DNA from: Patescibacteria group bacterium
GTDB taxonomy: Bacteria > Patescibacteriota > Patescibacteriia > WFTA01 > S139-112
Assembly (NCBI GenBank): GCA_015485715.1
Contig: WFTA01000033.1
Coordinates: forward strand, 1-36,054
Direction of reading: 5' to 3'
DNA length: 36,054 nt
The notes beneath the pieces were generated by a model, which ran no database searches, had not been told where the DNA came from, and worked only from the letters and a program-made list of their open reading frames with translations. How positions within the stretch are numbered: position 1 is the stretch's first letter; every line of letters begins with the position of its first letter. The position numbers and the translations under genes were made by a program. Shown here one piece after another: positions 808 through 35,632 of the stretch.

Positions 808-2469
808 ATGACAACAAAGAAGAAAAATATAAGTCTTTTTATTTTTATATTAATAGTTGCAATAATTGCTGCTTTTTTTGATTTTGGTGTTCCAGACAAT
901 TTTCCAGCAGCCAATATACTAAATGCACGGGAGTATAAGCTGGGACTTGATCTTAAAGGAGGTGCACATTTGGTATATGAAGCTGATATGTCTGATATTC
1001 CGGCCCGGGATAGAGATTCCCTTATTCAAGGTGTAAGAGATGTTATAGAAAGAAGGGTGAATGCCATAGGTATATCTGAGCCTGTGGTACAGACTAACAA
1101 AACAACCAATGGAAATTACAGGATTATAGTAGAGTTGGCAGGGGTTTTTGATGTTAATGAAGCAATTCAGATGATAGGAGAAACTCCTCTTTTAGAATTC
1201 AAAGAGCTTGATGAAAGCGCTCCACAAAGTACTCAAATAGATAATGAAAAAGAAGAGGAAATCAGAAAAAAGGCTGAGGAAGTACTTCAAAGAGCATTAA
1301 ACGGTGAAGATTTTGCTGCACTTGCTGAAGAGTTTTCAGAAGATCCCGGATCTCGTGATAAAGGAGGAGATTTAGGATTTGTATCCAGAGGTGTTTTTGT
1401 GGAGGAATTTGACAATGTTCTGTTTAATGAGGATTTTAAAGAGGGAGAAGTCTGGCCTGAATTGGTAAAAAGTCCTTTTGGCTGGCATATTATAAAAAAG
1501 GAGAATGAAAGGACAGAAAACGGAGAAAAGCAGATTAGAGCCAGACATATACTTTTTTCAACTGCGTCTGCTGCTCAACAGACTGTTGAGTGGAAAGATA
1601 CAGAACTTACAGGAAGGTATTTAAAGAGAGCAGAGGTATTGTTTAACCCGGCAACTGGAGAGCCTGAGGTTGGAGTTGAGTTTAATAAGGAAGGCAGAGA
1701 ACTTTTTAAGGAGATTACAGCCAGAAATATAGGCAAGCCTGTTGCTATATTTTTGGATGGTCAAATCATATCCACACCTGTAGTTCAGCAGGAGATTACA
1801 GGAGGAAGAGCAGTGATAACTGGTCAGTTTACAGTCAAAGAGGCTCAAAAACTGGCGCAGAGACTTAATGCAGGAGCTCTTCCTGTGCCAATTACGCTTA
1901 TCAGTCAGCAGACTGTTGGAGCATCTCTCGGGCAAGATGCGCTTTCTAAAAGCATAAAAGCAGGTATTTTGGGTCTTATTGTTGTCTCTTTGTTTATGAT
2001 TTTATTCTATAGATTGCCGGGTGTGATATCTGTGATTGTTCTTGCTATTTACTCTGTTCTTTTACTTGCTGTGTTTAAGCTTATAGGAATCACGCTCACA
2101 CTGGCAGGAGTTGCAGGTTTTATTCTTTCTCTTGGACTGGCTGTAGATGCTAATGTGCTCATTTTTGAGCGTATGAAGGAAGAGCTTAGAGATGGTAAGT
2201 CGTTTGATGTAGCAGTAGAAGACGGATTCAAAAGGGCATGGACATCTATTCGTGATTCCAATGTATCATCTATTTTAACAGCATTGATTTTATACTGGTT
2301 TGGTACATCTTTGATAAAAGGTTTTGCCATAACCCTCACACTTGGAATACTTTTGTCTATGTTCTCTGCAATAGTTATCACCAGAATGATATTGAGATTT
2401 GTACCTCATCAGGATAAGATGATGTGGTTTTATGGAGTTTCCAAAAAATCAATTAAGAGTATAGAATAA
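808..2469 (+). CDS. secD: Protein translocase subunit SecD with inserted parvulin-type PPIase domain
   Basis: LGLDLKGG, ERRVNAIG, AVDANVLIFER motifs; insert at aa ~146-252 with FAALAEEFSEDPGS..GGDLG..FGWHII. Confidence 0.95.
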   Translation: MTTKKKNISLFIFILIVAIIAAFFDFGVPDNFPAANILNAREYKLGLDLKGGAHLVYEADMSDIPARDRDSLIQGVRDVIERRVNAIGISEPVVQTNKTTNGNYRIIVELAGVFDVNEAIQMIGETPLLEFKELDESAPQSTQIDNEKEEEIRKKAEEVLQRALNGEDFAALAEEFSEDPGSRDKGGDLGFVSRGVFVEEFDNVLFNEDFKEGEVWPELVKSPFGWHIIKKENERTENGEKQIRARHILFSTASAAQQTVEWKDTELTGRYLKRAEVLFNPATGEPEVGVEFNKEGRELFKEITARNIGKPVAIFLDGQIISTPVVQQEITGGRAVITGQFTVKEAQKLAQRLNAGALPVPITLISQQTVGASLGQDALSKSIKAGILGLIVVSLFMILFYRLPGVISVIVLAIYSVLLLAVFKLIGITLTLAGVAGFILSLGLAVDANVLIFERMKEELRDGKSFDVAVEDGFKRAWTSIRDSNVSSILTALILYWFGTSLIKGFAITLTLGILLSMFSAIVITRMILRFVPHQDKMMWFYGVSKKSIKSIE

Positions 2470-2470
2470 T

Positions 2471-3397
2471 ATGGCTGAATTAAAGATAATCCAAAAAAGA
2501 AAATGGTATCTGGCAATTTCTTCTTTATTGATTATTGCAAGTTTTGTGATGATAGCTCTATATGGGTTGAATTTTGGAATAGATTTTACCGGAGGGTCAC
2601 TGCTGGAGATAAAGATAGAGTCATCACAGCAAATAAGTCAGGATATGATAAAGTCGTATTTCAAATCTGATGAATTAAATGTCAGAGAGTATAAGCTTCA
2701 GCAGGTAGATACAAACAGGTTTATAATCAGGACAGAAAGTCTTACAGAAGAGGAACACCAGAAGCTGCTTGACATTCTTTCCTCAAAAGTGGCATCTGAT
2801 ATTGAAGGAGCAGAAGTCCAGCAGATTAGATTTGAATCTGTGGGGCCTGTGATTGGACAGGAACTTAAAAGAAAGGCAGGTATTGCACTTTTGATCGCAT
2901 CAGTGGTTATTATTTTATATATAGCTTTTTCATTTCGAAAAGTATCCAAACCTGTTGCTTCATGGAAGTATGGTCTGGGCGCTATTGTAGCTCTTGTTCA
3001 TGATGTATTTATTACAGTTGGCATATATACTTTGATTTCGCACTTCACTGATTTTAAAATAGATTCTCTCTTTATTACAGCACTTCTTGTAATACTTGGT
3101 TACTCGGTAAACGATACCATAGTGGTATATGACAGAATAAGGGAGAATCTTCTTAAAGAGACAGAATATGATTTTGAGGATTTGATAAACAAGAGTGTAA
3201 ATCAGACTCTTGTCAGATCTGTGAATACATCATTGTCCACGCTTTTGGTATTGATCGCAATGTATTTGTTCGGAAGCGAGATTTTGCAGGGATTTGTTTT
3301 GGCTTTGATTATAGGTATTGCTATAGGTACGTATTCATCAATATTTATTGCCAGCCCTTTGATATATATATTTGCTGGCAAACAAAAAGTCTCATAG
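2471..3397 (+). CDS. secF: Protein translocase subunit SecF
   Basis: GIDFTGG, VGPVIGQEL, GYSVNDTIVVYDRIRE motifs; directly follows secD. Confidence 0.96.
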   Translation: MAELKIIQKRKWYLAISSLLIIASFVMIALYGLNFGIDFTGGSLLEIKIESSQQISQDMIKSYFKSDELNVREYKLQQVDTNRFIIRTESLTEEEHQKLLDILSSKVASDIEGAEVQQIRFESVGPVIGQELKRKAGIALLIASVVIILYIAFSFRKVSKPVASWKYGLGAIVALVHDVFITVGIYTLISHFTDFKIDSLFITALLVILGYSVNDTIVVYDRIRENLLKETEYDFEDLINKSVNQTLVRSVNTSLSTLLVLIAMYLFGSEILQGFVLALIIGIAIGTYSSIFIASPLIYIFAGKQKVS

Positions 3398-3398
3398 T

Positions 3399-4241
3399 AT
3401 GAAAAGTTTTTTTATTGTTTTATTTATTGCTATATTTTCAGGCTGGGGCCTACAGCAAGTCTATGCAGGTCAGGATGAGGCAAGGAATTTAGACAGGCTT
3501 TATATTGATGAGGCTACTATATCAAGAGGATATACATTATCTACAGATGAAGGCAATTTTAAGGTGGGAGTAATTCCGTATGCAATATCAGATCCTGTAT
3601 TGGTGGTTGCCAAGGAAATTCCTGCTTCACATTTTCCGGAAAAGTCCACTCAAGGGAAGGTAAGTCTTATATATGAATATGATATCAGAAAAATAAAGGA
3701 CAACCTTCAGGGAGTAAAGAAAAAGGCATCTGATATATCTATGCAGGATACTGAAAGTCTTGGAGCCTTGGAGAAGCCTATATATGTAGCCTTGAAGTAT
3801 GATTCAGACACACTTAATAAAAAAGTTGTACATTTTTGGAATAAGCCAACTCAAAGCTGGATTCCACTTCCATCAAGTACAGATTTTAAAAACAAGCTTG
3901 CCAGGGCTGTAATACACCTTCCTTATGCCAGGCTTGCTGTGTTTGAGGATGATAATGTCTATGAAGGTGCAGCCAGTTGGTATGCTTATAAAAATTGCCT
4001 ATGTGCGGCCTCTACCATTTACCCTAAAGGAAGTTTTGTGAGAGTAACCAATATACATCCAACAAGCGGGAAAATAGGCAAGAGTATAATTGTAAGAATA
4101 AACGACTATGGTCCTGACCCTAATATCCATCCTGATAGGGTAATAGACCTTGATAAAGTTGCCTTTTCTGAACTTGCTGTGTCTTTGGGAAGCGGACTTA
4201 TGATGGTGAGGGTTGAGGAGGTTGAACATACGCCTCATTAA
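3399..4241 (+). CDS. Secreted protein with C-terminal RlpA-like double-psi beta-barrel domain
   Basis: Signal peptide from ATG 3399; GAASWY...VRVTN...VRINDYGP...RVIDL. Confidence 0.75.
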   Translation: MKSFFIVLFIAIFSGWGLQQVYAGQDEARNLDRLYIDEATISRGYTLSTDEGNFKVGVIPYAISDPVLVVAKEIPASHFPEKSTQGKVSLIYEYDIRKIKDNLQGVKKKASDISMQDTESLGALEKPIYVALKYDSDTLNKKVVHFWNKPTQSWIPLPSSTDFKNKLARAVIHLPYARLAVFEDDNVYEGAASWYAYKNCLCAASTIYPKGSFVRVTNIHPTSGKIGKSIIVRINDYGPDPNIHPDRVIDLDKVAFSELAVSLGSGLMMVRVEEVEHTPH

Positions 4242-20804: not shown

Positions 20805-21692
20805 TCAAAACTCTGATATTTCATCTATCAGAACCTGAAGTTCATCTATGGTTATGTGTTGATCAGTGTCTGTATAGGATGTTCCCACTTCTATCAAAAT
20901 ACCATCATAGAGATACCCGTCTTGCGTCTTCATCTGCATAGCCTTTACTGTTTCATCAACAATCTCGTCTCTCTTTTTAGGGCCCAGTGAATGACTGGGA
21001 TCAAAAAACAATCTGCTTCCTGTCTCAAGTTTTACTTTTTCAGCCAGTTGATGAACAGGTGCAGACCTGTAATCACCCTTATCTGGTGTATCTACACCTC
21101 TATGAATCAAAAAATAATCAGCACCTGCACTTTTAGTGTAAGATATCACGCCTTTCCAAGTTTTTTCCAAAACACTTTCTTCTGATCTATTTTCTCCATT
21201 CTGAGACAAAAGCAAATTTGACCATTTGGGATTTTTAAGACCTATCTGCCAGCTATATTCTCTGGCATATCTTGCCATCTCATATATATGCCAGCCCAGC
21301 TGGGCAGGAGCCGGGTTCCACAAAATAAATTCTCCCTCTCCCAGCTTTTTCGCGTACAAAGGAAGCTGAATATGGGGCAAAACTATCTCTGATGCAATTA
21401 CAAGCCCTGTGTCTTTTCTCACCTTTTCTGCTATTTCTATGCTTGGAAGCATATCCCACTCATCAGAGGATACACCTTTAATTGCCTTATCCAAATTTGC
21501 AAGTGCGCTTTCTACATCCATTCCCATACTTTCCGAACTTGAAGAAAAATTTGTCCTTGATTTAAGACCTACCACTCTCAGACCATATACAGCCCTTTTG
21601 CCTCCAGTCTTTAGATCAGCTATTTTATACAGCTCTTCAATATTGTTTTTATTTACAGAACACGGTCCTGCTATTATCTTTACCTCCTGCAT
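20805..21692 (-). CDS. Divergent class I DAHP synthase / KDO8P synthase family protein
   Basis: IIAGPCSV, K.RT, LKN, HRG, DPSH, DGILIEV motifs; aromatic attenuator upstream favours DAHP synthase. Confidence 0.75.
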   Translation of the reverse strand: MQEVKIIAGPCSVNKNNIEELYKIADLKTGGKRAVYGLRVVGLKSRTNFSSSSESMGMDVESALANLDKAIKGVSSDEWDMLPSIEIAEKVRKDTGLVIASEIVLPHIQLPLYAKKLGEGEFILWNPAPAQLGWHIYEMARYAREYSWQIGLKNPKWSNLLLSQNGENRSEESVLEKTWKGVISYTKSAGADYFLIHRGVDTPDKGDYRSAPVHQLAEKVKLETGSRLFFDPSHSLGPKKRDEIVDETVKAMQMKTQDGYLYDGILIEVGTSYTDTDQHITIDELQVLIDEISEF

Positions 21693-21696
21693 ATAC

Positions 21697-22626
21697 TCAT
21701 GAATTTAATTCTAAATTCCTTTCTAAAACCCTGCTCCTTATTTTATCCAAAATACCATTTTTTAAAGCTTTATTCAAATCATCACAGGAAGGAAGAGCTG
21801 AACTGTTTCCAAATTTCGTACAGTGCATAGCTGATGCAAAATTTGCAAATCTGCATGCTCTCTCCATATCAAGGCCCCTCAAAAGTGCATAAGCAAATGC
21901 TCCTCTGAACACATCTCCTGCCCCCAAAGTATCTACTGCATTAACACTATAGGCCGGAATATGCAAAATCTCTTTCTCACGGCAAATGTAAGAGCCTGAT
22001 CCACCTGCAGTGATAACCAAATCTTTCTCAACTATCCTGCGTATTGCACTGGCATTAAACATCCAATTACTCTTGGCATCAAATTGTTTAACTGCCTCTA
22101 TGGATATAACAGGATGAGTAGAATGCCTGAGCATTCTAAATGCCTTATGGCTTATCTCAACTGATGTATCTACAATTAAAATACTATTCTTTTTCCTGTG
22201 TTTTACAACATACATAAAAGCCCTGAAACTGTTTCTGTCAAAAATAAACAAATCACTTGAGGCATCTCTATATGATATCCTGACAGGTTTCCTGTATTCA
22301 ATAGGAGATTTAATTCCTGTACGGGTGCCGCTGGCAGTATTGATAAGATAGGTATGGACTTTAGTGCGTTTCTGAATATTCTCTATTACTTTTACCTTTT
22401 CCCTGACCAATGTCATCTTGGCCCTTTTTCCGTAAGCATCTCTGCCTATATTGCCGTATAGTGTTGTATCTATACCCATACGGGATAAAAAAAGTGCAGC
22501 TATAGCAGATGGTCCTCCCACAGAGTAGACAACCTTGCTTGGTGCATGTTTAAAATCTTCACGCACAAATTCATCAAGTATATATGATTGGTCTATAGTT
22601 ATATCACCTACAGCTACTGCTTTCAT
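21697..22626 (-). CDS. PfkB-family carbohydrate kinase
   Basis: GG.S..AA..L...G, IG.D..G, DTLGAGDVF. Confidence 0.9.
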   Translation of the reverse strand: MKAVAVGDITIDQSYILDEFVREDFKHAPSKVVYSVGGPSAIAALFLSRMGIDTTLYGNIGRDAYGKRAKMTLVREKVKVIENIQKRTKVHTYLINTASGTRTGIKSPIEYRKPVRISYRDASSDLFIFDRNSFRAFMYVVKHRKKNSILIVDTSVEISHKAFRMLRHSTHPVISIEAVKQFDAKSNWMFNASAIRRIVEKDLVITAGGSGSYICREKEILHIPAYSVNAVDTLGAGDVFRGAFAYALLRGLDMERACRFANFASAMHCTKFGNSSALPSCDDLNKALKNGILDKIRSRVLERNLELNS

Positions 22627-22640
22627 ATGACTTCATAAAT

Positions 22641-22668
22641 TAAAAAAGCCGCCTATATTTGGCGGCTA
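22641..22668 (-). terminator. Attenuator terminator
   Basis: Minus strand AGCCGCC-AAATATA-GGCGGCT followed by a T run, ~15 nt before the PfkB start. Confidence 0.85.
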
Positions 22669-22694
22669 TCAAAAAATCCTGAAAAATACCTAAA

Positions 22695-22799
22695 CTAGCC
22701 GCCTAAGGCGAACCAAAAATAAAAAAATCCAAAATAGAAATTTTGGTTTCCAAAACTTTTTCTACAATTATCTATCTTTTTATTATCTGCTTTTTTCAT
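22695..22799 (-). CDS. Aromatic amino acid attenuator leader peptide (34 aa)
   Basis: Manual translation MKKADNKKIDNCRKSFGNQNFYFGFFYFWFALGG; overlaps antiterminator arm GGCGGCTA. Confidence 0.85.
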   Translation of the reverse strand: MKKADNKKIDNCRKSFGNQNFYFGFFYFWFALGG

Positions 22800-22808
22800 A
22801 GCAATTTT

Positions 22809-22850
22809 ATAATATCACAAATATTAAATTATGCAATACATTTATCCACA
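22809..22850 (-). promoter_or_regulatory. Promoter of the leader peptide with adjacent DnaA box
   Basis: TTGCAT(22836-22831)-16 nt-TATTAT(22814-22809) with TGn extension; TTATCCACA at 22842-22850 on the + strand. Confidence 0.55.
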
Positions 22851-22859
22851 AAAGTCTTG

Positions 22860-23873
22860 TTATAGGCCGCATATTTTATTTACTTCTATTTTAGAAAGTG
22901 TCTCTTTCGTGGGTATTTTTTTTAAAATACCATATTTTGCGCCTATTTCAGATACTACCTGAGCAGCATTAAGCGCTGCCAATCTTAGCGCATACTCTAT
23001 ATCACCATTTTCTCTATACAGCCCTGCTACAAATGATGAACCAAAAGTATCACCAGCACCTGTTGCATCCTTCACCTCTCTGGCCAAAGATGGAACAAAG
23101 TAAATATTGTTATCAAAACCATCAACCCCATACACAGCATAGGCTCCTCTTGCTCCGTCAGTAATCACAACATATCCTGTGGTAGTAAGTATAATATCAG
23201 CAAACAGGGCCTTGATATCTGATATTTTATCCTCTCCAGCAAGCATGGCTGCCTCTCTTCTGTTTAAAATAAGAACATCTATATTTCTAAATATCGGGAG
23301 CAATTGCTTTACCCCCGCTCCGAGTTCGTCTTTTCCGGGATTTATTGCAACCTTCATACTTTTTCTCTTGGCAACAGAAATAATTTTCTCCAAAATATTC
23401 AAATCTCCTCCCAAAGATGTTATATAAATCCAGTGTGATTCAATTTTCCTTAGTGGAATATCTTTGAGCTTCATATTTCTAGACGCTCCTCTATAGATAA
23501 AAGCAGTCCTATCCCCCCATCTTGTAAGCATAACTGTAGAGTAAGCTGTATTTAAAATCTTATCCACTACTACATATTTCCTGTCTATCTTTGCTTTTTT
23601 CAGAAAATCAAGTATGGTCCTGCCTACTATATCATCTCCTATTTTTGAAATTAAGGCAGTTTTGTACCCAAAAGATCTAAATACATAAGCTGAATTAGTA
23701 CCTCCTCCACCAACAGAAAAGTGAATACTTTCTATATCTATCTTATCCCCAACATAAAAACACTCCTTTTTTGTAGTGGTAACTTCGTCCACAGGTACAG
23801 ATATATCCTCCAGTCCCTTGCAGATCAATATTACATCCTGTGTAGCTGAACCTATACTTACAAAGTCAAACAT
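22860..23873 (-). CDS. PfkB-family carbohydrate kinase
   Basis: GGGGTNSA, NPG, ILNRREA, DATGAGDTF. Confidence 0.92.
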   Translation of the reverse strand: MFDFVSIGSATQDVILICKGLEDISVPVDEVTTTKKECFYVGDKIDIESIHFSVGGGGTNSAYVFRSFGYKTALISKIGDDIVGRTILDFLKKAKIDRKYVVVDKILNTAYSTVMLTRWGDRTAFIYRGASRNMKLKDIPLRKIESHWIYITSLGGDLNILEKIISVAKRKSMKVAINPGKDELGAGVKQLLPIFRNIDVLILNRREAAMLAGEDKISDIKALFADIILTTTGYVVITDGARGAYAVYGVDGFDNNIYFVPSLAREVKDATGAGDTFGSSFVAGLYRENGDIEYALRLAALNAAQVVSEIGAKYGILKKIPTKETLSKIEVNKICGL

Positions 23874-23884
23874 AACATAAACTA

Positions 23885-24150
23885 TAAATACTAAATTCTA
23901 AATTCTAAATTCGAAACACTAAATAACCTTAAAATCCTAAATTCTAAACAATTCCAAAATTCAAAATCCTAAACAATAACCAATAACCCAGTTTAATAAA
24001 TGTCAAATGACAAAGCTCAAATGACAAATTAATGACAAATGTCAAAATCTAAACCGTCATTATTATTATTATTTGACATTTGGATTTTGGAATTTGGAAT
24101 TCTATATAGGTTTGAGTTAATTAGGAATTAGGGTAATTATATATAAAATT
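23885..24150 (-). repeat. AT-rich heptamer cassette on the minus strand
   Basis: Reverse complement of the 18630-18780 core plus a CTAAATT (TTTAG-type) tail next to the downstream start codon. Confidence 0.75.
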
Positions 24151-24170
24151 AAATCTGATTAATAATTCAT

Positions 24171-25175
24171 TTATATTTTCCTTGGTTTTATTTTAGGATA
24201 TTTTCTAATCATCTTTCTAATCCCTGCCTCTGTTAAAAGGCCTTTTTGGGCTCCTGTGTACTGAACTACAGAAGTCGCATTGGCATTGCCCCACAGCAAG
24301 GCTTCAGATACAGACTTACCTCTTATCAAAGCCGCTGTAAATCCTATGGAAAAGCTATCACCAGCACCTGTTCTCTCTTTTGCCTTCAATGGATATGCTT
24401 TTATATACCAGGTATCACTGCCGTCATGCACATAAGCACCATTGGGTCCGTCTGTTATCACCACAATATGCGGACCTAGTTCGTAAAGTCCTCTGGCAAG
24501 ATGTTTAACCCACATCTTAACTTCTCTATTTGTGGATTTTACAGAAATAGGCTTTTCATCCAAAAGTATAGCCGCCTCTTCTTTATTGAGAAGTATGAGG
24601 TATGATGAACAAAGTATTTCATACAGATTATCTCTACCCTCTCTTAATTGATATGTACCGGGTTGAAAAACCAGATTAATATTTTCTTTATCTACCAAAT
24701 CCTTTATCTGCCTATGAACTTTAGAATGATCAGGGCCAAGTGATGAATAATATATCCATTTAGTCTTTAATTTTTTGGGCAAATTATATCTCCACTTTTC
24801 ATGCTTAACTATAATAGTTCTTTCTGCACCATAATTTAAAACAACTGAGTAATTGGACGTCCTTCCTCTTTCTATCTTTACATATCTGGTGTTTACTTTT
24901 TCTTTTTGGAAAACTTTTAAAATACTCTCACCCACCAAATCATCTCCTATATGTGTATATATTGCAGTGTTCAGCCCCAGTCGTGCCGCACCAACAGCTG
25001 CATTGGCACTATTCCCTACTCCCGGAACTTGTGTTACTTTTTTGGCAGGAATTTTATCTGCCCAAGACAAGCACAAAAGGCATTTATTCGGCTTAATATC
25101 ACACAATACAGAAGCTTCATCTATTTCTACAAATGTGTCATGAGTTGAATCTCCTATAGATATTAGGTCAAACAT
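24171..25175 (-). CDS. PfkB-family carbohydrate kinase
   Basis: GNSANAAVG.ARLG, LNKEEA, ERTGAGDSF. Confidence 0.92.
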   Translation of the reverse strand: MFDLISIGDSTHDTFVEIDEASVLCDIKPNKCLLCLSWADKIPAKKVTQVPGVGNSANAAVGAARLGLNTAIYTHIGDDLVGESILKVFQKEKVNTRYVKIERGRTSNYSVVLNYGAERTIIVKHEKWRYNLPKKLKTKWIYYSSLGPDHSKVHRQIKDLVDKENINLVFQPGTYQLREGRDNLYEILCSSYLILLNKEEAAILLDEKPISVKSTNREVKMWVKHLARGLYELGPHIVVITDGPNGAYVHDGSDTWYIKAYPLKAKERTGAGDSFSIGFTAALIRGKSVSEALLWGNANATSVVQYTGAQKGLLTEAGIRKMIRKYPKIKPRKI

Positions 25176-25179
25176 ACTA

Positions 25180-25652
25180 CAGAATTTTTAATTTTTAATT
25201 TAATAATTTTATAAACAATTTTTAAATATCTAATTAAAAAATACCTAATTTTAAACATTTCTTACAATCTTGGAAAATATAAGTACAAACTGGTGTGCTT
25301 CGTCCCATAAATCCATCCATTCTATTTTTTTATCTTTCCTGGCCACTGATAACATTCTTAACCACTGTTTGGTTTCATTTGTCTCCTCTAAACAAATACG
25401 TATTTTATTTTTAAAATCCCTTTTTGAAGAAGCTTGGTTGGCTTCCATGTAATTAGCTCCTATACTAGTTGCTGATTTTACAAGCTGATTTATTAAAGGC
25501 TGGCTAACAGTATCAATTGGAATTGACTTACAAAATAATATAATATTTTCTCCAAACTTAGCAGTTCGTTCTTCTAGGTCGTATTGCATATTTTAAAAAT
25601 TAAAAATTGAGATATTATTTATAAAATTAAAAATTATAAAATTAGAAATTAT
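25180..25652. repeat. Imperfect inverted AT-rich arms (25180-25236 and 25594-25652) enclosing the four-helix-bundle gene
   Basis: AATTTTTAATTTTTAATT..AATTTTATAAACAAT...ATATCTAATT versus AATTGAGATATTATTTATAAAATTAAAAATTATAAAATTAGAAATT. Confidence 0.7.
25251..25589 (-). CDS. Four-helix-bundle protein (TIGR02436 / 23S rRNA IVS protein family)
   Basis: YDLEERT..F, QL.KS.TSIGANYMEA....SKRDF..KI.I...E..ET..WL. Confidence 0.9.
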   Translation of the reverse strand: MQYDLEERTAKFGENIILFCKSIPIDTVSQPLINQLVKSATSIGANYMEANQASSKRDFKNKIRICLEETNETKQWLRMLSVARKDKKIEWMDLWDEAHQFVLIFSKIVRNV

Positions 25653-25659
25653 CTCTATC

Positions 25660-26646
25660 TTATTTTAATTTTATTATACTTTTCACCTTTTCCACAACCG
25701 CATCTCTGTTGAGCTTGTACTCTTTCAAAAGTTCATCAGGTGTTCCTGACTCACCAAATGTATCTTCCACACCCACTCTCTCTATATAGACAGGATATTC
25801 TCTGGATAAAAATTCAGCTATAGCTCCGCCCAGACCCCCTGCCATCTGGTGTTCCTCTACTGTCACCACTGCCCCTGTTTTCTTTGCAGATCTTAAGATA
25901 GTTTTTTCATCTAAAGGCTTTATGGTATGAGAATTTATAACTTCGCAGTCTATCTTATACTTTTTATACAAATGTTCTGCAGCAGCCAGTGCCTCATACA
26001 CCAGAGGGCCACACGCAATAATACTAACATCTCCGCCTTCTCTATAAACTACAGCTTTGCCTATTTTAAAAGGGGTTTTTGGAGTTGTGATGATAGGAGT
26101 TTTCTCTCTAGCAAACCTGATATAGACAGGACCTTTTATCTTTGCTGCAGCAACAGTAGCTTTAGCAGTCTCTATAGAATCGCAAGGAGCAATAACAGTC
26201 ATATTGGGTAAAACTCTGGTAATAGCTATATCTTCCAAAGCCTGATGCGTAGCACCGTCAGGGCCTACTGATATACCGCTGTGAGCTCCCGCAATCTTCA
26301 CATTGGCATTAGAATAGCAGATAGACACTCTTATCTGATCCCAGTTTCTGCCCGGTGAAAATACAGCATAAGATGAGATAAAAGGTATTTTGCCGGCAAA
26401 AGACATACCTGCTGCTATTCCTGCCATATTCTGCTCTGCAACACCTATTTCTACAAATCTGTCTGGAAACTTATCCTCAAACATCTTAGATCTTGTAGAA
26501 TCTTTCAAATCACAGCAAAGAACTACTACATTTTTATCCCTTTTCCCGGCTTCTACCAACCCTCTTCCATAACCATTTCTGGTCGGTTCCATCTCAATAT
26601 TCTTGCTAAAAAGTTTTGGATTCAAATAAGCCTTTTTGTTCAACAT
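25660..26646 (-). CDS. Transketolase, C-terminal subunit
   Basis: GVAEQNM, G.SVGPDGATHQALED, TIKPLD, TVEEHQ..GGLG. Confidence 0.95.
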   Translation of the reverse strand: MLNKKAYLNPKLFSKNIEMEPTRNGYGRGLVEAGKRDKNVVVLCCDLKDSTRSKMFEDKFPDRFVEIGVAEQNMAGIAAGMSFAGKIPFISSYAVFSPGRNWDQIRVSICYSNANVKIAGAHSGISVGPDGATHQALEDIAITRVLPNMTVIAPCDSIETAKATVAAAKIKGPVYIRFAREKTPIITTPKTPFKIGKAVVYREGGDVSIIACGPLVYEALAAAEHLYKKYKIDCEVINSHTIKPLDEKTILRSAKKTGAVVTVEEHQMAGGLGGAIAEFLSREYPVYIERVGVEDTFGESGTPDELLKEYKLNRDAVVEKVKSIIKLK

Positions 26647-26649
26647 AAG

Positions 26650-26740
26650 AATTTTTAATTTTTAATTTTACAATTTTTAAACAAATTAAATAAATCTATT
26701 TAAAGTTTGGAAAATTGTAAATTGTGAATTTGAAAATTTA
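26650..26740. repeat. Empty inverted heptamer cassette between the transketolase halves
   Basis: AATTTTTAATTTTTAATTTTACAATTTTTAAAC...GTTTGGAAAATTGTAAATTGTGAATTTGAAAATT. Confidence 0.7.
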
Positions 26741-26746
26741 TAACTC

Positions 26747-27607
26747 CTACTCACTGTCTCCACAGACTATTCGTCCTTCCATACTGCGCAGGTGTCTGAG
26801 AGCATGCTTAGCTTCTTCTTTCTTCGGTGGTTTGCCGTGCCAATTAAAATCACGTTCCATAAAATGCACACCCTTGCCCGGTATAGTATGGCATATTATG
26901 AGCGTTGGCTTTTCGTATATAGCTTCTGCCTCGTGGCATGCATCTATAATAGCCTCTATATTATGCCCGTCCACCTCCAATACATGCCAGCCAAAAGCTT
27001 CATATTTGTCTCTCAAAGGCTCAAGCGGCATAACATCTTCAGTAAATCCGTCAATCTGGATATTGTTTCTATCCATTAAAGCTGTAAGGTTATAAAGCCT
27101 GTTTTTGGCAGCAAACATAGCAGCTTCCCAAATCTGCCCCTCCTGTTGTTCCCCGTCACTCATTACACAGTATACTCTCCAGCTCGCACCATCCATAAGA
27201 GCAGCCAGCGCCATGCCTGCAGCTTGAGATAGTCCCTGTCCCAGAGGTCCTGATGAATTTTCCACACCCGGAAGCGCTAGATTGTGAGGATGTCCCTGAA
27301 GCCTTGTTCCCAGCTTTCTCAACGTCCAAAGCTCTTTTCTTGGAAAATATCCACATCTGGAAAGTACAGCATAAAGCACAGGAGCTATATGGCCGCAAGA
27401 AAGCACCAGCCTATCCCTGTCTTTCCAATTTGGCTTTTTAGGATCATGCCTCATTACAGCAAAATATAAAGCAGTAAAAACATCTGCCATACCAAGCGGC
27501 CCTGCTGAATGGCCTGATCCTGCTTTTACAAGCATTTTTACTATATCTTGACGGACAGAATTAGCTATTTTTTTAAGCTGTTTTTCAGTGTAATTTTGCT
27601 TAAACAT
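26747..27607 (-). CDS. Transketolase, N-terminal TPP-binding subunit
   Basis: GSGH, DRLVLSCGH, LQGHP, SGPLGQG, SDGE..EG..WEA. Confidence 0.95.
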   Translation of the reverse strand: MFKQNYTEKQLKKIANSVRQDIVKMLVKAGSGHSAGPLGMADVFTALYFAVMRHDPKKPNWKDRDRLVLSCGHIAPVLYAVLSRCGYFPRKELWTLRKLGTRLQGHPHNLALPGVENSSGPLGQGLSQAAGMALAALMDGASWRVYCVMSDGEQQEGQIWEAAMFAAKNRLYNLTALMDRNNIQIDGFTEDVMPLEPLRDKYEAFGWHVLEVDGHNIEAIIDACHEAEAIYEKPTLIICHTIPGKGVHFMERDFNWHGKPPKKEEAKHALRHLRSMEGRIVCGDSE

Positions 27608-35388: not shown

Positions 35389-35632
35389 CAAAACAGAAAA
35401 ATTTTTTCACTTTTTTAATCACACACCCCCATCCCGCCTTGGCGGGACAATTAAGGAAAAGAAAAATTTCTGTTTTGTCTTCCTCTTAACAGAGGAAAAG
35501 CGGAAACGCTCCCACCCCAACCGCGCCTGCGGCGCGGAGTTCGCAAAAGGGCAAAAATTCCTTCCCTTGAGACCTCCCCTTCCTTTTTGCCCTTTTGCTT
35601 ATTCGCTCGCTTCGCGAGCGCGGCGGCGGGGA
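35389..35632. other. Cluster of at least 7 hairpins, several GC-rich
   Basis: Includes 15-bp stem 35543-57/35584-98, CCGCGCC-TGC-GGCGCGG, CGCTCGC-TTC-GCGAGCG, AGCG-GAAA-CGCT. Confidence 0.65.

What the first reader, a model, noticed from the sequence alone, without database searches (positions are those of the whole stretch)
22641..22836. Unannotated Phe/Tyr/Trp leader-peptide attenuator in a CPR-like genome
Seen: a 34-aa minus-strand ORF (22799-22695) carries FYFGFFYFWF, i.e. 9 of 10 codons aromatic (6 Phe, 2 Tyr, 1 Trp). Directly after it lie the classic alternative pairings: 1:2 CGCC-TTA-GGCG, 2:3 GGCGGCTA/TAGCCGCC (8 bp), and 3:4 AGCCGCC/GGCGGCT plus a T run. A promoter precedes it and the operon below ends in a DAHP-synthase-like gene. 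Established: this is the trp/pheA/his-type ribosome-stalling architecture, and DAHP synthase starts the shared aromatic pathway. Inference: one attenuator senses all three aromatic amino acids in a lineage generally regarded as auxotrophic and regulation-poor. I cannot confirm it is undescribed.
Basis: partly seen in the sequence, partly recalled or inferred. Interest (0 to 1): 0.88.

Follow-up and report, generated by a model that had tools for sequence, protein, structure and literature searches.

The report
Phe/Tyr leader-peptide attenuator before DAHP synthase
A short upstream reading frame packed with phenylalanine and tyrosine codons, followed by alternative RNA hairpins and a terminator, most likely acts as a classical ribosome-stalling switch for a sugar kinase and DAHP synthase operon, and the same device precedes related genes in dozens of other tiny-genome (CPR) bacteria.

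Summary
A 34-codon minus-strand ORF (22799-22695) carries FYFGFFYFWF. It is followed by a 1:2 hairpin, an 8-bp 2:3 antiterminator and a 3:4 terminator with a T run, 20 nt before a PfkB kinase / DAHP-synthase-like operon.

It is not chance. The same layout lies upstream of the orthologous DAHP synthase operon in 47 of 80 loci by a rule-based scan and in 51 of 80 by a covariance model. The layout is a sigma-70 promoter ending 3-13 nt before an ATG, a short ORF with an F/Y run, a GC hairpin whose 3' half also pairs with the terminator's 5' arm, and a terminator 14-50 nt after the stop. Most loci are titled Patescibacteria. In many of them the gene heads aroB-aroA-pheA-tyrA operons. Synonymous TTT/TTC and TAT/TAC variation, 3-nt periodicity and strain variants all point to translated regulatory codons.

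Best reading: a Phe/Tyr-responsive, probably leaderless, ribosome-mediated transcription attenuator. Trp sensing is not supported.

The mechanism is classical (E. coli pheL, C. glutamicum aroR-aroF). No Rfam family reaches threshold, and my literature searches found no description in CPR. I rate it a new member of a known kind.

One puzzle remains. This genome, like most PfkB-DAHPS genomes examined, shows no core shikimate genes.

The parts
22831..22836 (-). -35-like hexamer TTGCAT
   Evidence: Read. It matches 3 of 6 to TTGACA and lies 16 nt upstream of the -10. The same geometry with a strong TTGACA is seen in homologous leaders.
22809..22817 (-). Extended -10: TG (22817-22816), one base, then TATTAT (22814-22809). 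It ends 9 nt before the ATG, implying a leaderless or 2-3 nt 5' UTR transcript (inferred).
   Evidence: In 37 of 50 family members a promoter scoring at least 9 of 12 ends 3-13 nt before the ATG, against 79 of 4590 control ATGs. An SD-like motif is present in only 2 of 50.
22695..22799 (-). Leader peptide ORF, 34 codons plus TAG
   Evidence: Homologous short ORFs occur in 47 of 80 loci.
22710..22739 (-). Regulatory codon run FYFGFFYFWF (codons 21-30)
   Evidence: There are no substitutions here in roughly 96%-identical strain contigs, while codons 3-12 carry 8.
22707..22711 (-). Segment 1 (UCGCC), 5' half of the 1:2 hairpin
   Evidence: The hairpin folds at -5.2 kcal/mol. The helix position is conserved and covaries in the family alignment.
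22696..22703 (-). Segment 2 (GGCGGCUA). It pairs with either segment 1 or segment 3 and overlaps the stop codon.
22661..22668 (-). Segment 3 (UAGCCGCC): antiterminator partner of segment 2 and 5' arm of the terminator
   Evidence: The 2:3 helix has 8 Watson-Crick pairs and folds at -15.2 kcal/mol. The duplex with its own arm is -14.2 kcal/mol, against a mean of -7.9 with other leaders' arms.
22641..22653 (-). Segment 4 (GGCGGCU, 22653-22647) plus the T6 run (22646-22641). With segment 3 this forms the intrinsic terminator.
   Evidence: Terminator scan. The hairpin folds at -13.4 kcal/mol.
21697..22626 (-). First regulated gene: PfkB-family sugar kinase, 309 aa, substrate unknown
   Evidence: Pfam PF00294, E 3e-31. 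It is below every NCBIfam equivalog cut-off. The same PfkB lies directly upstream of DAHPS in 12 loci, and in 2 more with a class II aldolase between them.
20805..21692 (-). Second regulated gene: divergent type I-beta-like DAHP synthase, 295 aa
   Evidence: Gene context.

Best explanation
This is a ribosome-mediated (leader-peptide) transcription attenuator that couples expression of the PfkB kinase / DAHP synthase operon to the supply of charged tRNA-Phe and tRNA-Tyr.

Proposed mechanism:
1. A sigma-70-type promoter ends 9 nt before the ATG, so the transcript starts at or just before the start codon. No Shine-Dalgarno sequence is present. This step is inferred.
2. A ribosome translates the 34-codon leader while RNA polymerase transcribes the region downstream.
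3. When Phe-tRNA and Tyr-tRNA are plentiful, the ribosome runs to the TAG, which lies inside segment 2. It masks GGCGGCUA, so segment 3 pairs with segment 4. The AGCCGCC/GGCGGCU hairpin plus U6 then terminates transcription 20 nt before the PfkB start codon.
4. When the ribosome stalls on the Phe/Tyr codons in the first eight positions of the run, segment 2 is free. It pairs with segment 3 (8 bp), the terminator cannot form, and the operon is transcribed.

Shown here: the sequence features, their conservation and covariation in orthologous loci, and the in-silico switching. Inferred: the transcription start, translation of the leader, and the response to starvation.
For: (1) All parts are present at the stated coordinates.

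(2) Conservation. A rule-based scan of 1,271,788 bases (both strands of 80 loci holding orthologues of 44-52% identity) gave 53 hits. Of these, 49 lie directly upstream of the first gene of the DAHPS operon, in 47 loci, and 4 lie elsewhere. The own genome gave 3 hits, with this locus the clear one. Covariance model R1 matched 51 of the 80 loci at that position, including 4 loci not in its seed. In the own genome it matched only this site at E<0.01.

(3) Codon-level selection. The runs hold TTT 158, TTC 44, TAT 51, TAC 48 and TGG 13 codons. C occurs 2, 4 and 99 times at codon positions 1, 2 and 3. All 50 leaders have Tyr and at least 2 Phe codons.

(4) Geometry. In 48 of 50 leaders the ATG lies 3-10 codons before the run. 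The terminator starts 14-50 nt after the stop, and within 14-28 nt in 43 of 50.

(5) Structure. For the 1:2 hairpin plus terminator, 75.2% of cells are paired against 65.1% in shuffles. All 13 pairs show changes on both sides, and 0 of 500 shuffles reach the observed covariation. That alignment was fitted to this structure. For the antiterminator, the segment-2 region pairs better with its own terminator arm (mean -11.2 kcal/mol) than with other leaders' arms (-9.1; 0 of 10,000 permutations) or with shuffled own arms (-8.0).

(6) Constrained folds of the window's leader. A stall at codons 21, 23, 25 or 28 gives the 2:3 antiterminator. A ribosome at codons 29 or 30, or at the stop, gives the terminator.

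(7) Strain contigs of about 96% identity carry 8 substitutions in leader codons 3-12 (7 non-synonymous), 2 in the terminator loop, and none in the run, segments 1-4 or the T run.

(8) Target logic. Orthologues of the last gene are followed by aroB in 34 loci, aroA in 30, pheA in 24, tyrA in 22 and aroE in 13, out of 78 loci clustered. Chorismate mutase, shikimate kinase and dehydroquinase genes also occur there.

(9) There is no room for a promoter between the terminator and the PfkB ATG (20 nt), so the terminator sits in the operon's leader.
Against: - There are no expression data. No RNA run holding this DNA was listed.
- The window's promoter match is modest at 8 of 12, with only 3 of 6 in the -35 hexamer.
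- There is no Shine-Dalgarno sequence, so translation depends on leaderless initiation, which has not been shown for this organism.
- The N-terminal part is unusually long: 20 codons before the run, against 3-10 in 48 of 50 leaders.
- Thermodynamic folding without a ribosome is ambiguous. The 241-nt fold gives the 1:2 plus terminator state. The 168-nt fold gives the 2:3 antiterminator nested in a 1:4 helix. Basal termination must therefore be kinetic.
- A stall at codon 27 gave a terminator-containing MFE.
- A fixed-register column count of the antiterminator was not significant: 56.5% paired against 54.2%, with 35 of 500 shuffles as high and the +3 slide equally good.
- Reversing the terminator arm was a weak control. 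The own arm was better in 30 of 43 cases.
- In this genome the enzymes between DAHP and chorismate were not found, so the physiological sense of Phe/Tyr control here is not explained.
Confidence: 0.85

Rival explanations
1. This is an ordinary intrinsic terminator ending the upstream PfkB/transketolase operon, and the aromatic ORF is a chance product of a T-rich spacer in an AT-rich genome.
For: Windows with at least 9 of 10 aromatic codons occur at about 9 places in this genome's six frames. No other terminator was found between the upstream genes and this one. The terminator may therefore also stop read-through from upstream.
Against: The same ORF type, with its own promoter, start, stop placement and paired segments, recurs upstream of orthologous DAHPS operons in 47 to 51 of 80 loci that have different upstream neighbours. 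The run shows codon periodicity. No promoter can fit in the 20 nt between the terminator and the PfkB start.
Confidence: 0.03
2. The element is a conserved structured RNA, either a riboswitch or a protein-binding leader. It senses a ligand or protein through the U-rich tract and hairpins, and the reading frame is incidental.
For: The hairpins and terminator are conserved. No experiment shows translation. A Shine-Dalgarno-like motif is seen in only 2 of 50 leaders.
Against: An ATG lies 3-10 codons before the run and directly after a promoter in most members. The stop codon is always placed in or near segment 2. C is confined to third codon positions, 99 times against 2 and 4. Sequence outside the run and stems is not conserved. 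No Rfam family reaches threshold.
Confidence: 0.05
3. The switch acts mainly on translation of the PfkB gene, or on mRNA stability, rather than by transcription termination. Alternatively, the 34-aa hydrophobic peptide has a function of its own.
For: The terminator ends only 20 nt before the PfkB ATG here, and 5-11 nt before the gene in several homologues, so the hairpin could also affect ribosome access. Leader peptides with functions in trans are reported in Sinorhizobium (abstracts listed).
Against: The hairpin is followed by a U run in nearly all members, which is the signature of intrinsic termination. In other members the terminator lies 90-200 nt from the gene. The peptide's N-terminus varies freely between strains and between loci. 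Its C-terminus is dictated by the stems.
Confidence: 0.08

Closest known systems
Corynebacterium glutamicum aroR leader peptide upstream of aroF (DAHP synthase). Source: Neshat et al. 2014 as described in review PMC11802643, passages read.
   Same: A short leader peptide with Phe and Tyr codons (Phe-Tyr-Phe) controls a DAHP synthase operon by ribosome stalling. The enzyme target and the sensed amino acids are the same.
   Different: It comes from a different phylum and a different DAHPS type. The run here is much longer (9 aromatic codons of 10, against a tripeptide). Sequence relatedness was not tested, because no aroR sequence was available from a tool. According to the review, Tyr availability did not affect the C. 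glutamicum operon.
E. coli pheL-pheA attenuator (Rfam RF01859 Phe_leader) and the trp/his/thr/leu leader family
   Same: It has a four-segment 1:2 / 2:3 / 3:4 architecture with a run of cognate codons and an intrinsic terminator. This is the only Rfam family with a full-length alignment resembling this site.
   Different: The score is 20.2 bits against a gathering score of 55 (E 0.8), so it is not a member. The E. coli leaders are recalled (no call) to be translated from a Shine-Dalgarno site. Here the promoter abuts the ATG. The run mixes Phe and Tyr.
Leaderless polycysteine short ORFs acting as cysteine-responsive attenuators in mycobacteria (bioRxiv 10.1101/834739, abstract seen in the listing)
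   Same: A leaderless short ORF is the first cistron, and its cognate-codon run controls downstream operon genes.
   Different: It senses a different amino acid in a different phylum. From the abstract alone I cannot say whether a terminator/antiterminator pair is involved.
T-box leaders
   Same: They sense tRNA charging upstream of amino-acid genes and end in a terminator/antiterminator switch.
   Different: No T-box match was found in the window, in the 601-nt permissive scan, or in 16 homologous loci. At about 160 nt with a translated ORF, the element is too short and of a different build.

Membership tests
Leader-peptide (ribosome-mediated) transcription attenuators | Short ORF with start and stop codons in the leader of a biosynthetic operon | tested here: met
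   ORF 22799-22695. Homologous ORFs occur in 47 of 80 loci.
Leader-peptide (ribosome-mediated) transcription attenuators | Run of codons for the amino acid(s) made by the regulated pathway | tested here: met
   9 of 10 codons are aromatic. All 50 family leaders carry Tyr and at least 2 Phe codons. Orthologous operons hold aroB, aroA, pheA and tyrA.
Leader-peptide (ribosome-mediated) transcription attenuators | Intrinsic terminator between the leader ORF and the first structural gene | tested here: met
   Terminator at 22667-22641. It is conserved, with 8 of 8 stem pairs changing on both sides.
Leader-peptide (ribosome-mediated) transcription attenuators | Mutually exclusive antiterminator whose 5' strand is masked by a ribosome at the stop codon and freed by a ribosome stalled in the run | tested here: met
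   In the window the 2:3 helix has 8 bp, the stop codon lies inside segment 2, and the constrained folds switch state. Family level: free-register tests are positive. The fixed-register column count is not significant.
Leader-peptide (ribosome-mediated) transcription attenuators | Read-through rises on starvation for the cognate amino acid and depends on leader translation | not testable with these tools
   No RNA run holding this DNA was listed. This needs reporter or in-vitro assays.
Rfam RF01859 Phe_leader | Score at or above the family's gathering threshold (55 bits) | tested here: not met
   20.2 bits, E 0.8. No hit at gathering threshold in the window or in 16 homologous loci.
T-box leader | Match to the Rfam T-box model (specifier loop and T-box sequence) | tested here: not met
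   No match, even at E up to 10, in 22400-23000.
DAHP synthase, type I (PF00793) | Pfam match above the curated cut-off | tested here: met
   28.3 bits against a cut-off of 25.5. NCBIfam DAHPS models score far below their cut-offs.
DAHP synthase, type I (PF00793) | Fold of type I-beta DAH7PS | tested here: met
   AlphaFold pLDDT 91.3. The top Foldseek hits are P. furiosus, T. maritima, Geobacillus and Listeria DAH7PS, with TM 0.68-0.70 and 18-19% identity. KDO8P synthases rank lower.
DAHP synthase, type I (PF00793) | Metal and PEP-binding residues, and condensation of PEP with erythrose-4-phosphate | tested here: inconclusive
   C11, H234, E268 and D275 are invariant in 22 homologues. The GPCS and DPSH motifs align to solved DAH7PS. 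Their identity as ligands is recalled, not tested. Activity cannot be tested here.
DAHP synthase, type I (PF00793) | Genomic association with shikimate and Phe/Tyr genes | tested here: met
   In the orthologue loci: aroB 34, aroA 30, pheA 24, tyrA 22 of 78. This is not so in the window itself.

The most novel reading that the evidence does not exclude
In this genome the Phe/Tyr-sensing attenuator controls a DAHP synthase and a PfkB kinase even though the six enzymes from DAHP to chorismate were not found, while chorismate mutase and a fused prephenate dehydrogenase/dehydratase are present. Most other genomes with the PfkB-DAHPS arrangement show the same gap. The conserved attenuator argues that the pair still serves Phe/Tyr supply. 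That would mean one of two things. Either there is an unrecognised route from DAHP, or from another product of this divergent enzyme, to prephenate-type intermediates. Or the pathway is split between the symbiont and its host. Separately, the family would be evidence that CPR bacteria couple transcription and translation on leaderless mRNAs for metabolic control.
Probability: 0.15. Interest if true: 0.85.

Novelty: new member of a known kind. Interest (0 to 1): 0.58.

Why it matters
Patescibacteria (CPR) are usually described as metabolically minimal, and I know of no described cis-regulatory system in them. This locus belongs to a conserved, testable regulatory family in that phylum and in some loci titled Elusimicrobia. 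The family has a defined promoter, a probably leaderless leader peptide, and a terminator/antiterminator switch.

If confirmed, it would show three things:
- Ribosome-RNA polymerase coupling operates in these organisms.
- The subset of CPR that keep aromatic biosynthesis regulate it by tRNA charging.
- A divergent, mostly unnamed "hypothetical" protein family is a Phe/Tyr-linked DAHP synthase.

The leader also works as a functional label. It flags the PfkB kinase, and in two loci a class II aldolase, as part of aromatic precursor supply. It also exposes an unexplained truncated pathway in this genome.

The mechanism itself is textbook, so the advance is one of distribution and annotation rather than principle.

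Tried and rejected
- Closer relatives for a fine-scale comparison. A scan of metagenome contigs with the DAHPS-like protein matched 127 stretches, but none encoded a relative. Of 60 relatives in the genome search, only one same-family genome has the gene, and its contig ends 122 nt upstream.
- Expression. No RNA holder was listed. All laid runs were DNA contigs.
- The fixed-register column count of the antiterminator on the model-fitted alignment was not significant. I relied on free-register duplex tests instead.
- phmmer of the DAHPS-like protein against PDB sequences found nothing relevant. The profile search gave only weak DAH7PS hits, E about 1e-3. The fold search was needed.
- I looked for a second leader before the genome's tyrA-pheA fusion. 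None was seen in the 150-nt spacer, and model R1 did not hit it.
- I tested whether an unannotated 326-aa protein before tyrA-pheA matches an unannotated 324-aa protein in locus L028, as a candidate for a missing step. They are not related.
- The weak R1 hits at window 35394-35467 and C26:14836-14965 (E 0.3-0.6) were not pursued. They look like plain terminators.
- Literature. Searches found no paper linking Patescibacteria or the Candidate Phyla Radiation with leader peptides or attenuation.
Full report
**What is in the window**

Read on the minus strand, the 233-nt spacer lies between a PfkB kinase gene (stop at 22860) and the next PfkB gene (ATG at 22626). It holds, in order:
- a promoter-like site, TTGCAT, 16 nt, then TG-n-TATTAT (22836-22809);
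- an ATG at 22799, 9 nt after the -10 hexamer, with no Shine-Dalgarno motif;
- a 34-codon ORF, MKKADNKKIDNCRKSFGNQNFYFGFFYFWFALGG, ending in TAG at 22697-22695;
- the hairpin UCGCC-UUA-GGCGG;
- a 26-nt spacer;
- the terminator AGCCGCC-AAAUAUA-GGCGGCU followed by U6 (22667-22641).

GGCGGCUA (22703-22696, overlapping the stop codon) is complementary to UAGCCGCC (22668-22661).

The downstream genes are a 309-aa PfkB-family kinase and a 295-aa protein. The latter just passes Pfam's DAHP_synth_1 threshold, at 28.3 against 25.5 bits. The window is contig C33 of a 0.98-Mb, 34% GC genome that is 88.6% complete. Its one same-family relative is a record titled "Patescibacteria group bacterium".

**Is it more than chance?**

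The aromatic run alone is not. T-rich DNA in this genome gives at least 9 of 10 aromatic codons at about 9 places in the six frames. Terminator-like hairpins are also common genome-wide.

The combination is rare. I scanned for an ATG-ORF with at least 5 of 7 F/Y/W, a stop within 25 codons, and a terminator 5-60 nt after the stop. This found 3 places in the whole genome. This locus is the only clean one.

**Comparative evidence**

The 295-aa protein has hundreds of relatives (837 at E<=0.001), mostly unnamed or "hypothetical" and mostly from Patescibacteria. I fetched 80 loci encoding orthologues of 44-52% identity.

The same scan over both strands of these loci (1,271,788 bases) gave 53 hits. 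Of these, 49 lie directly upstream of the first gene of the operon containing the orthologue, in 47 loci. Two loci carry two leaders in tandem. Only 4 hits lie elsewhere.

Typical peptides are MVQKASHNSFYFYFYFTASGGVGSCA, MKDTATQNFYFYFDPPCGGGCSC, MIKNQVFEFVFGFFYFTPAEAG and MQQTISKSFYFWFFGSALSG.

I built covariance model R1 from 50 leaders. It matched 51 of the 80 loci at that position, including 4 loci not used to build it. One of these is cut by a contig end, and one has its terminator masked by N. In the window's own genome it matched only this site at E<0.01.

The loci without the element include all 14 titled Bacteroidota, Bacteroidetes, Cytophagales and kin, both loci titled Rickettsiales or Deianiraeaceae, and several Paceibacteria-type loci. 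In an even sample of 150 further genomes of the phylum, 3 had a match. Two of these sit next to the orthologue. The element therefore follows the gene, which most of the phylum lacks.

**Evidence that the frame is translated, or at least selected as codons**

- In the runs, codons are TTT 158, TTC 44, TAT 51, TAC 48 and TGG 13, with 21 others.
- C occurs 2, 4 and 99 times at codon positions 1, 2 and 3.
- All 50 leaders contain Tyr and at least two Phe codons. 13 contain one Trp codon.
- The ATG lies 3-10 codons before the run in 48 of 50. The window, at 20 codons, is an outlier.
- Peptides are 15-35 residues long.
- The terminator starts 14-50 nt after the stop.
- A sigma-70 promoter scoring at least 9 of 12, often a perfect TTGACA, ends 3-13 nt before the ATG in 37 of 50 leaders, against 79 of 4590 control ATGs.
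- A Shine-Dalgarno-like word precedes the ATG in only 2 of 50.

I infer that these leader peptides are translated from leaderless or nearly leaderless transcripts. The window's promoter (8 of 12 plus an extended -10 TG, 9 nt from the ATG) fits this geometry but is one of the weaker matches.

**Structure**

On the model-fitted alignment of 55 matches, I counted pairs for the 1:2 hairpin plus terminator:
- 75.2% of cells are paired, against 65.1% in shuffles.
- All 13 pairs have changes on both sides.
- The covariation score is 0.282 against 0.127, with 0 of 500 shuffles as high.
- All slid registers are worse.

This alignment was fitted to that structure, which favours it.

For the antiterminator, a fixed-register column count was not significant. 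It gave 56.5% against 54.2%, with 35 of 500 shuffles as high, and the +3 slide was as good. The register differs between subgroups.

Free-register tests are positive:
- The region from the end of the run to just past the stop pairs with its own terminator 5' arm at a mean of -11.2 kcal/mol.
- It pairs with other leaders' arms at -9.1 kcal/mol (0 of 10,000 permutations as low).
- It pairs with composition-matched shuffles of its own arm at -8.0 kcal/mol (mean z -1.7).
- The own arm beat the reversed arm in 30 of 43 cases.

Leaders with unusual terminators carry matching segment-2 sequences:
- the window: AGCCGCC with GGCGGCUA;
- L026: AACCGAUC with GGAUCGG;
- L038: ACCCUCC with GGGAGGGU;
- L066: AACCUCCC with CGGGAGG.

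**The switch in the window**

The individual helices fold at -5.2 kcal/mol (1:2), -15.2 (2:3) and -13.4 (3:4).

I masked the RNA from the 5' end to 12 nt beyond the A-site codon, which is an assumed footprint. Results were:
- A stall at codons 21, 23, 25 or 28 gives the 2:3 antiterminator.
- A stall at codon 27 gives a terminator-containing MFE.
- A stall at codon 29 (the only Trp) or codon 30, or a ribosome at the stop codon, gives the terminator.

Without a ribosome the two states are close. The 241-nt fold shows 1:2 plus the terminator. The 168-nt fold shows 2:3 nested in a 1:4 helix.

The model therefore works on paper for Phe and Tyr codons in the first eight positions of the run. It gives no support for Trp sensing.

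**Natural variation**

Contigs about 96% identical to the window, from three coded DNA runs of two studies, differ at 17 substitution sites in 22550-22950:
- 8 fall in leader codons 3-12 (7 non-synonymous).
- 2 fall in the terminator loop.
- 2 fall in the spacer.
- None falls in the run, segments 1-4 or the U run.
- The three indels lie outside the ORF and stems.

The variants are shared between runs, so they represent few independent events.

**The regulated genes**

The AlphaFold model of the 295-aa protein (pLDDT 91.3) is most similar to type I-beta DAH7P synthases of Pyrococcus, Thermotoga, Geobacillus and Listeria, with TM about 0.7 and 18-19% identity. KDO8P synthases rank below these. 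A profile search finds the same enzymes weakly, through the GPCS and DPSH motifs.

Of the 78 loci in which the orthologue was clustered, it is followed on the same strand by DHQ synthase (34), EPSP synthase (30), prephenate dehydratase (24), prephenate dehydrogenase (22) and shikimate dehydrogenase (13). Chorismate mutase, shikimate kinase and dehydroquinase genes also occur there. The family is therefore the DAHP synthase of these organisms' aromatic operons, and an F/Y leader makes regulatory sense.

The PfkB309 type of kinase sits between leader and DAHPS in 12 loci. In two Dojkabacteria-titled loci a class II fructose-bisphosphate aldolase lies between them. A kinase plus an aldolase could supply erythrose-4-phosphate through sedoheptulose-1,7-bisphosphate. 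That route is recalled from the literature and is only an idea here.

**What does not fit**

In the window's genome I found no chorismate synthase, DHQ synthase or shikimate dehydrogenase by Pfam models. tblastn with the CPR proteins also found no aroB, aroA, aroE, aroK or dehydroquinase.

The genome does encode a type II chorismate mutase (C39) and a fused prephenate dehydrogenase/dehydratase (C47).

Among genomes with the PfkB-DAHPS arrangement, chorismate synthase was found in 2 of 10 and DHQ synthase in 1 of 10. Chorismate synthase was found in 5 of 5 genomes with DAHPS-aro operons. The completeness of those genomes was not reported. Either the core genes are systematically missed, or these organisms use DAHPS, the kinase and the terminal enzymes in a way not yet understood.

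**Comparison with what is known**

The mechanism is the classical one: trpL, pheL, hisL, thrL.

The nearest functional precedent is the aroR leader (Phe-Tyr-Phe) before aroF in Corynebacterium glutamicum (review PMC11802643, passages read). Leaderless short-ORF attenuators are reported in mycobacteria (abstract only).

Rfam 15 has no family that reaches its threshold on the window or on 16 homologous loci. Phe_leader scores 20.2 against 55 bits.

Six full-text searches found no paper connecting Patescibacteria or the Candidate Phyla Radiation with leader peptides or attenuation. Supplements could not be read.

**Verdict**

This is a real, conserved and apparently undescribed family of a known kind of regulator. 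Confidence that it is a Phe/Tyr leader-peptide attenuator is about 0.85. Trp sensing is not supported.

Noticed in passing
L016:1541-1701 (+), before genes at 1801-2430 and 2439-3731: Model R1 hit a second leader (43.7 bits) whose ORF reads ...MITLMLTERISNIITTTIITAQCVVRW. This is an Ile/Thr-rich run followed by the same kind of hairpin and terminator. It lies upstream of a P-loop (shikimate-kinase-like) kinase and a 430-aa PLP enzyme of the threonine-synthase type (PF00291). It looks like a thr-type leader-peptide attenuator, which suggests that attenuation is used for several amino-acid operons in these bacteria.
   Followed up: partly
L055:2420-2656 and L064:3740-3969: Two F/Y leader peptides, each with its own terminator, stand in tandem before the same operon. 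Only the first has a recognisable promoter.
   Followed up: no
Own genome G000 (C33, C39:3643-3957, C47:16109-17464) and genomes behind L005, L012, L023-L025, L028, L038, L061, L074: Genomes with the PfkB-DAHPS arrangement mostly lack chorismate synthase (found in 2 of 10) and DHQ synthase (found in 1 of 10). They nevertheless keep chorismate mutase and/or prephenate dehydrogenase/dehydratase, which are fused in the window's genome and in L061 and L074. Five of 5 genomes with DAHPS-aro operons have chorismate synthase. The first and last steps of the pathway are present without the middle.
   Followed up: partly
L023:3163-4002 and L024:3149-3991: A class II fructose-bisphosphate aldolase gene sits between the PfkB kinase and DAHPS under the same leader. 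This hints that kinase plus aldolase supply erythrose-4-phosphate, for example via sedoheptulose-1,7-bisphosphate.
   Followed up: no
window 22860-27607 (-): Upstream of the attenuator, on the same strand, lie a split transketolase (N-terminal part 26747-27607, C-terminal part 25660-26646), a 23S rRNA intervening-sequence protein homologue (25251-25589) and two further PfkB kinases (24171-25175 and 22860-23873). The scan found no terminator before the attenuator's own.
   Followed up: partly
window 22729-22746 (-): An AU-rich hairpin, CCAAAAU-UUCU-AUUUUGG, spans the first codons of the aromatic run. Its role (pause site or chance) is unknown, and I did not check its conservation.
   Followed up: no
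L088:1501-1607 (-) (genome G202): A promoter-proximal ORF, MYPTQAFTFFFFTSQLRGALGNL, with a terminator matched R1 (47.2 bits). It is not next to a DAHPS orthologue. The genes downstream are a 105-aa protein without a Pfam family and a xylose-isomerase-like TIM-barrel protein. It may be a Phe-only leader for another operon.
   Followed up: partly
window 1-36054: GC skew is positive from 1 to about 20 kb and negative from about 20 kb to the end. This coincides with the switch from plus-strand to minus-strand genes, at the convergent GatB / DAHPS gene ends near 20.5-20.8 kb.
   Followed up: no
L016, L006, L018, L020 (163-aa protein after DAHPS) and L028:3713-4687, L091:1640-2620: Several conserved proteins without any Pfam family sit inside or beside the aromatic operons. 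These include cluster c22 (about 160 aa, directly after DAHPS in 4 loci) and a 326-aa protein overlapping the start of the tyrA-pheA fusion in the window's genome. They are candidates for unrecognised pathway steps.
   Followed up: partly
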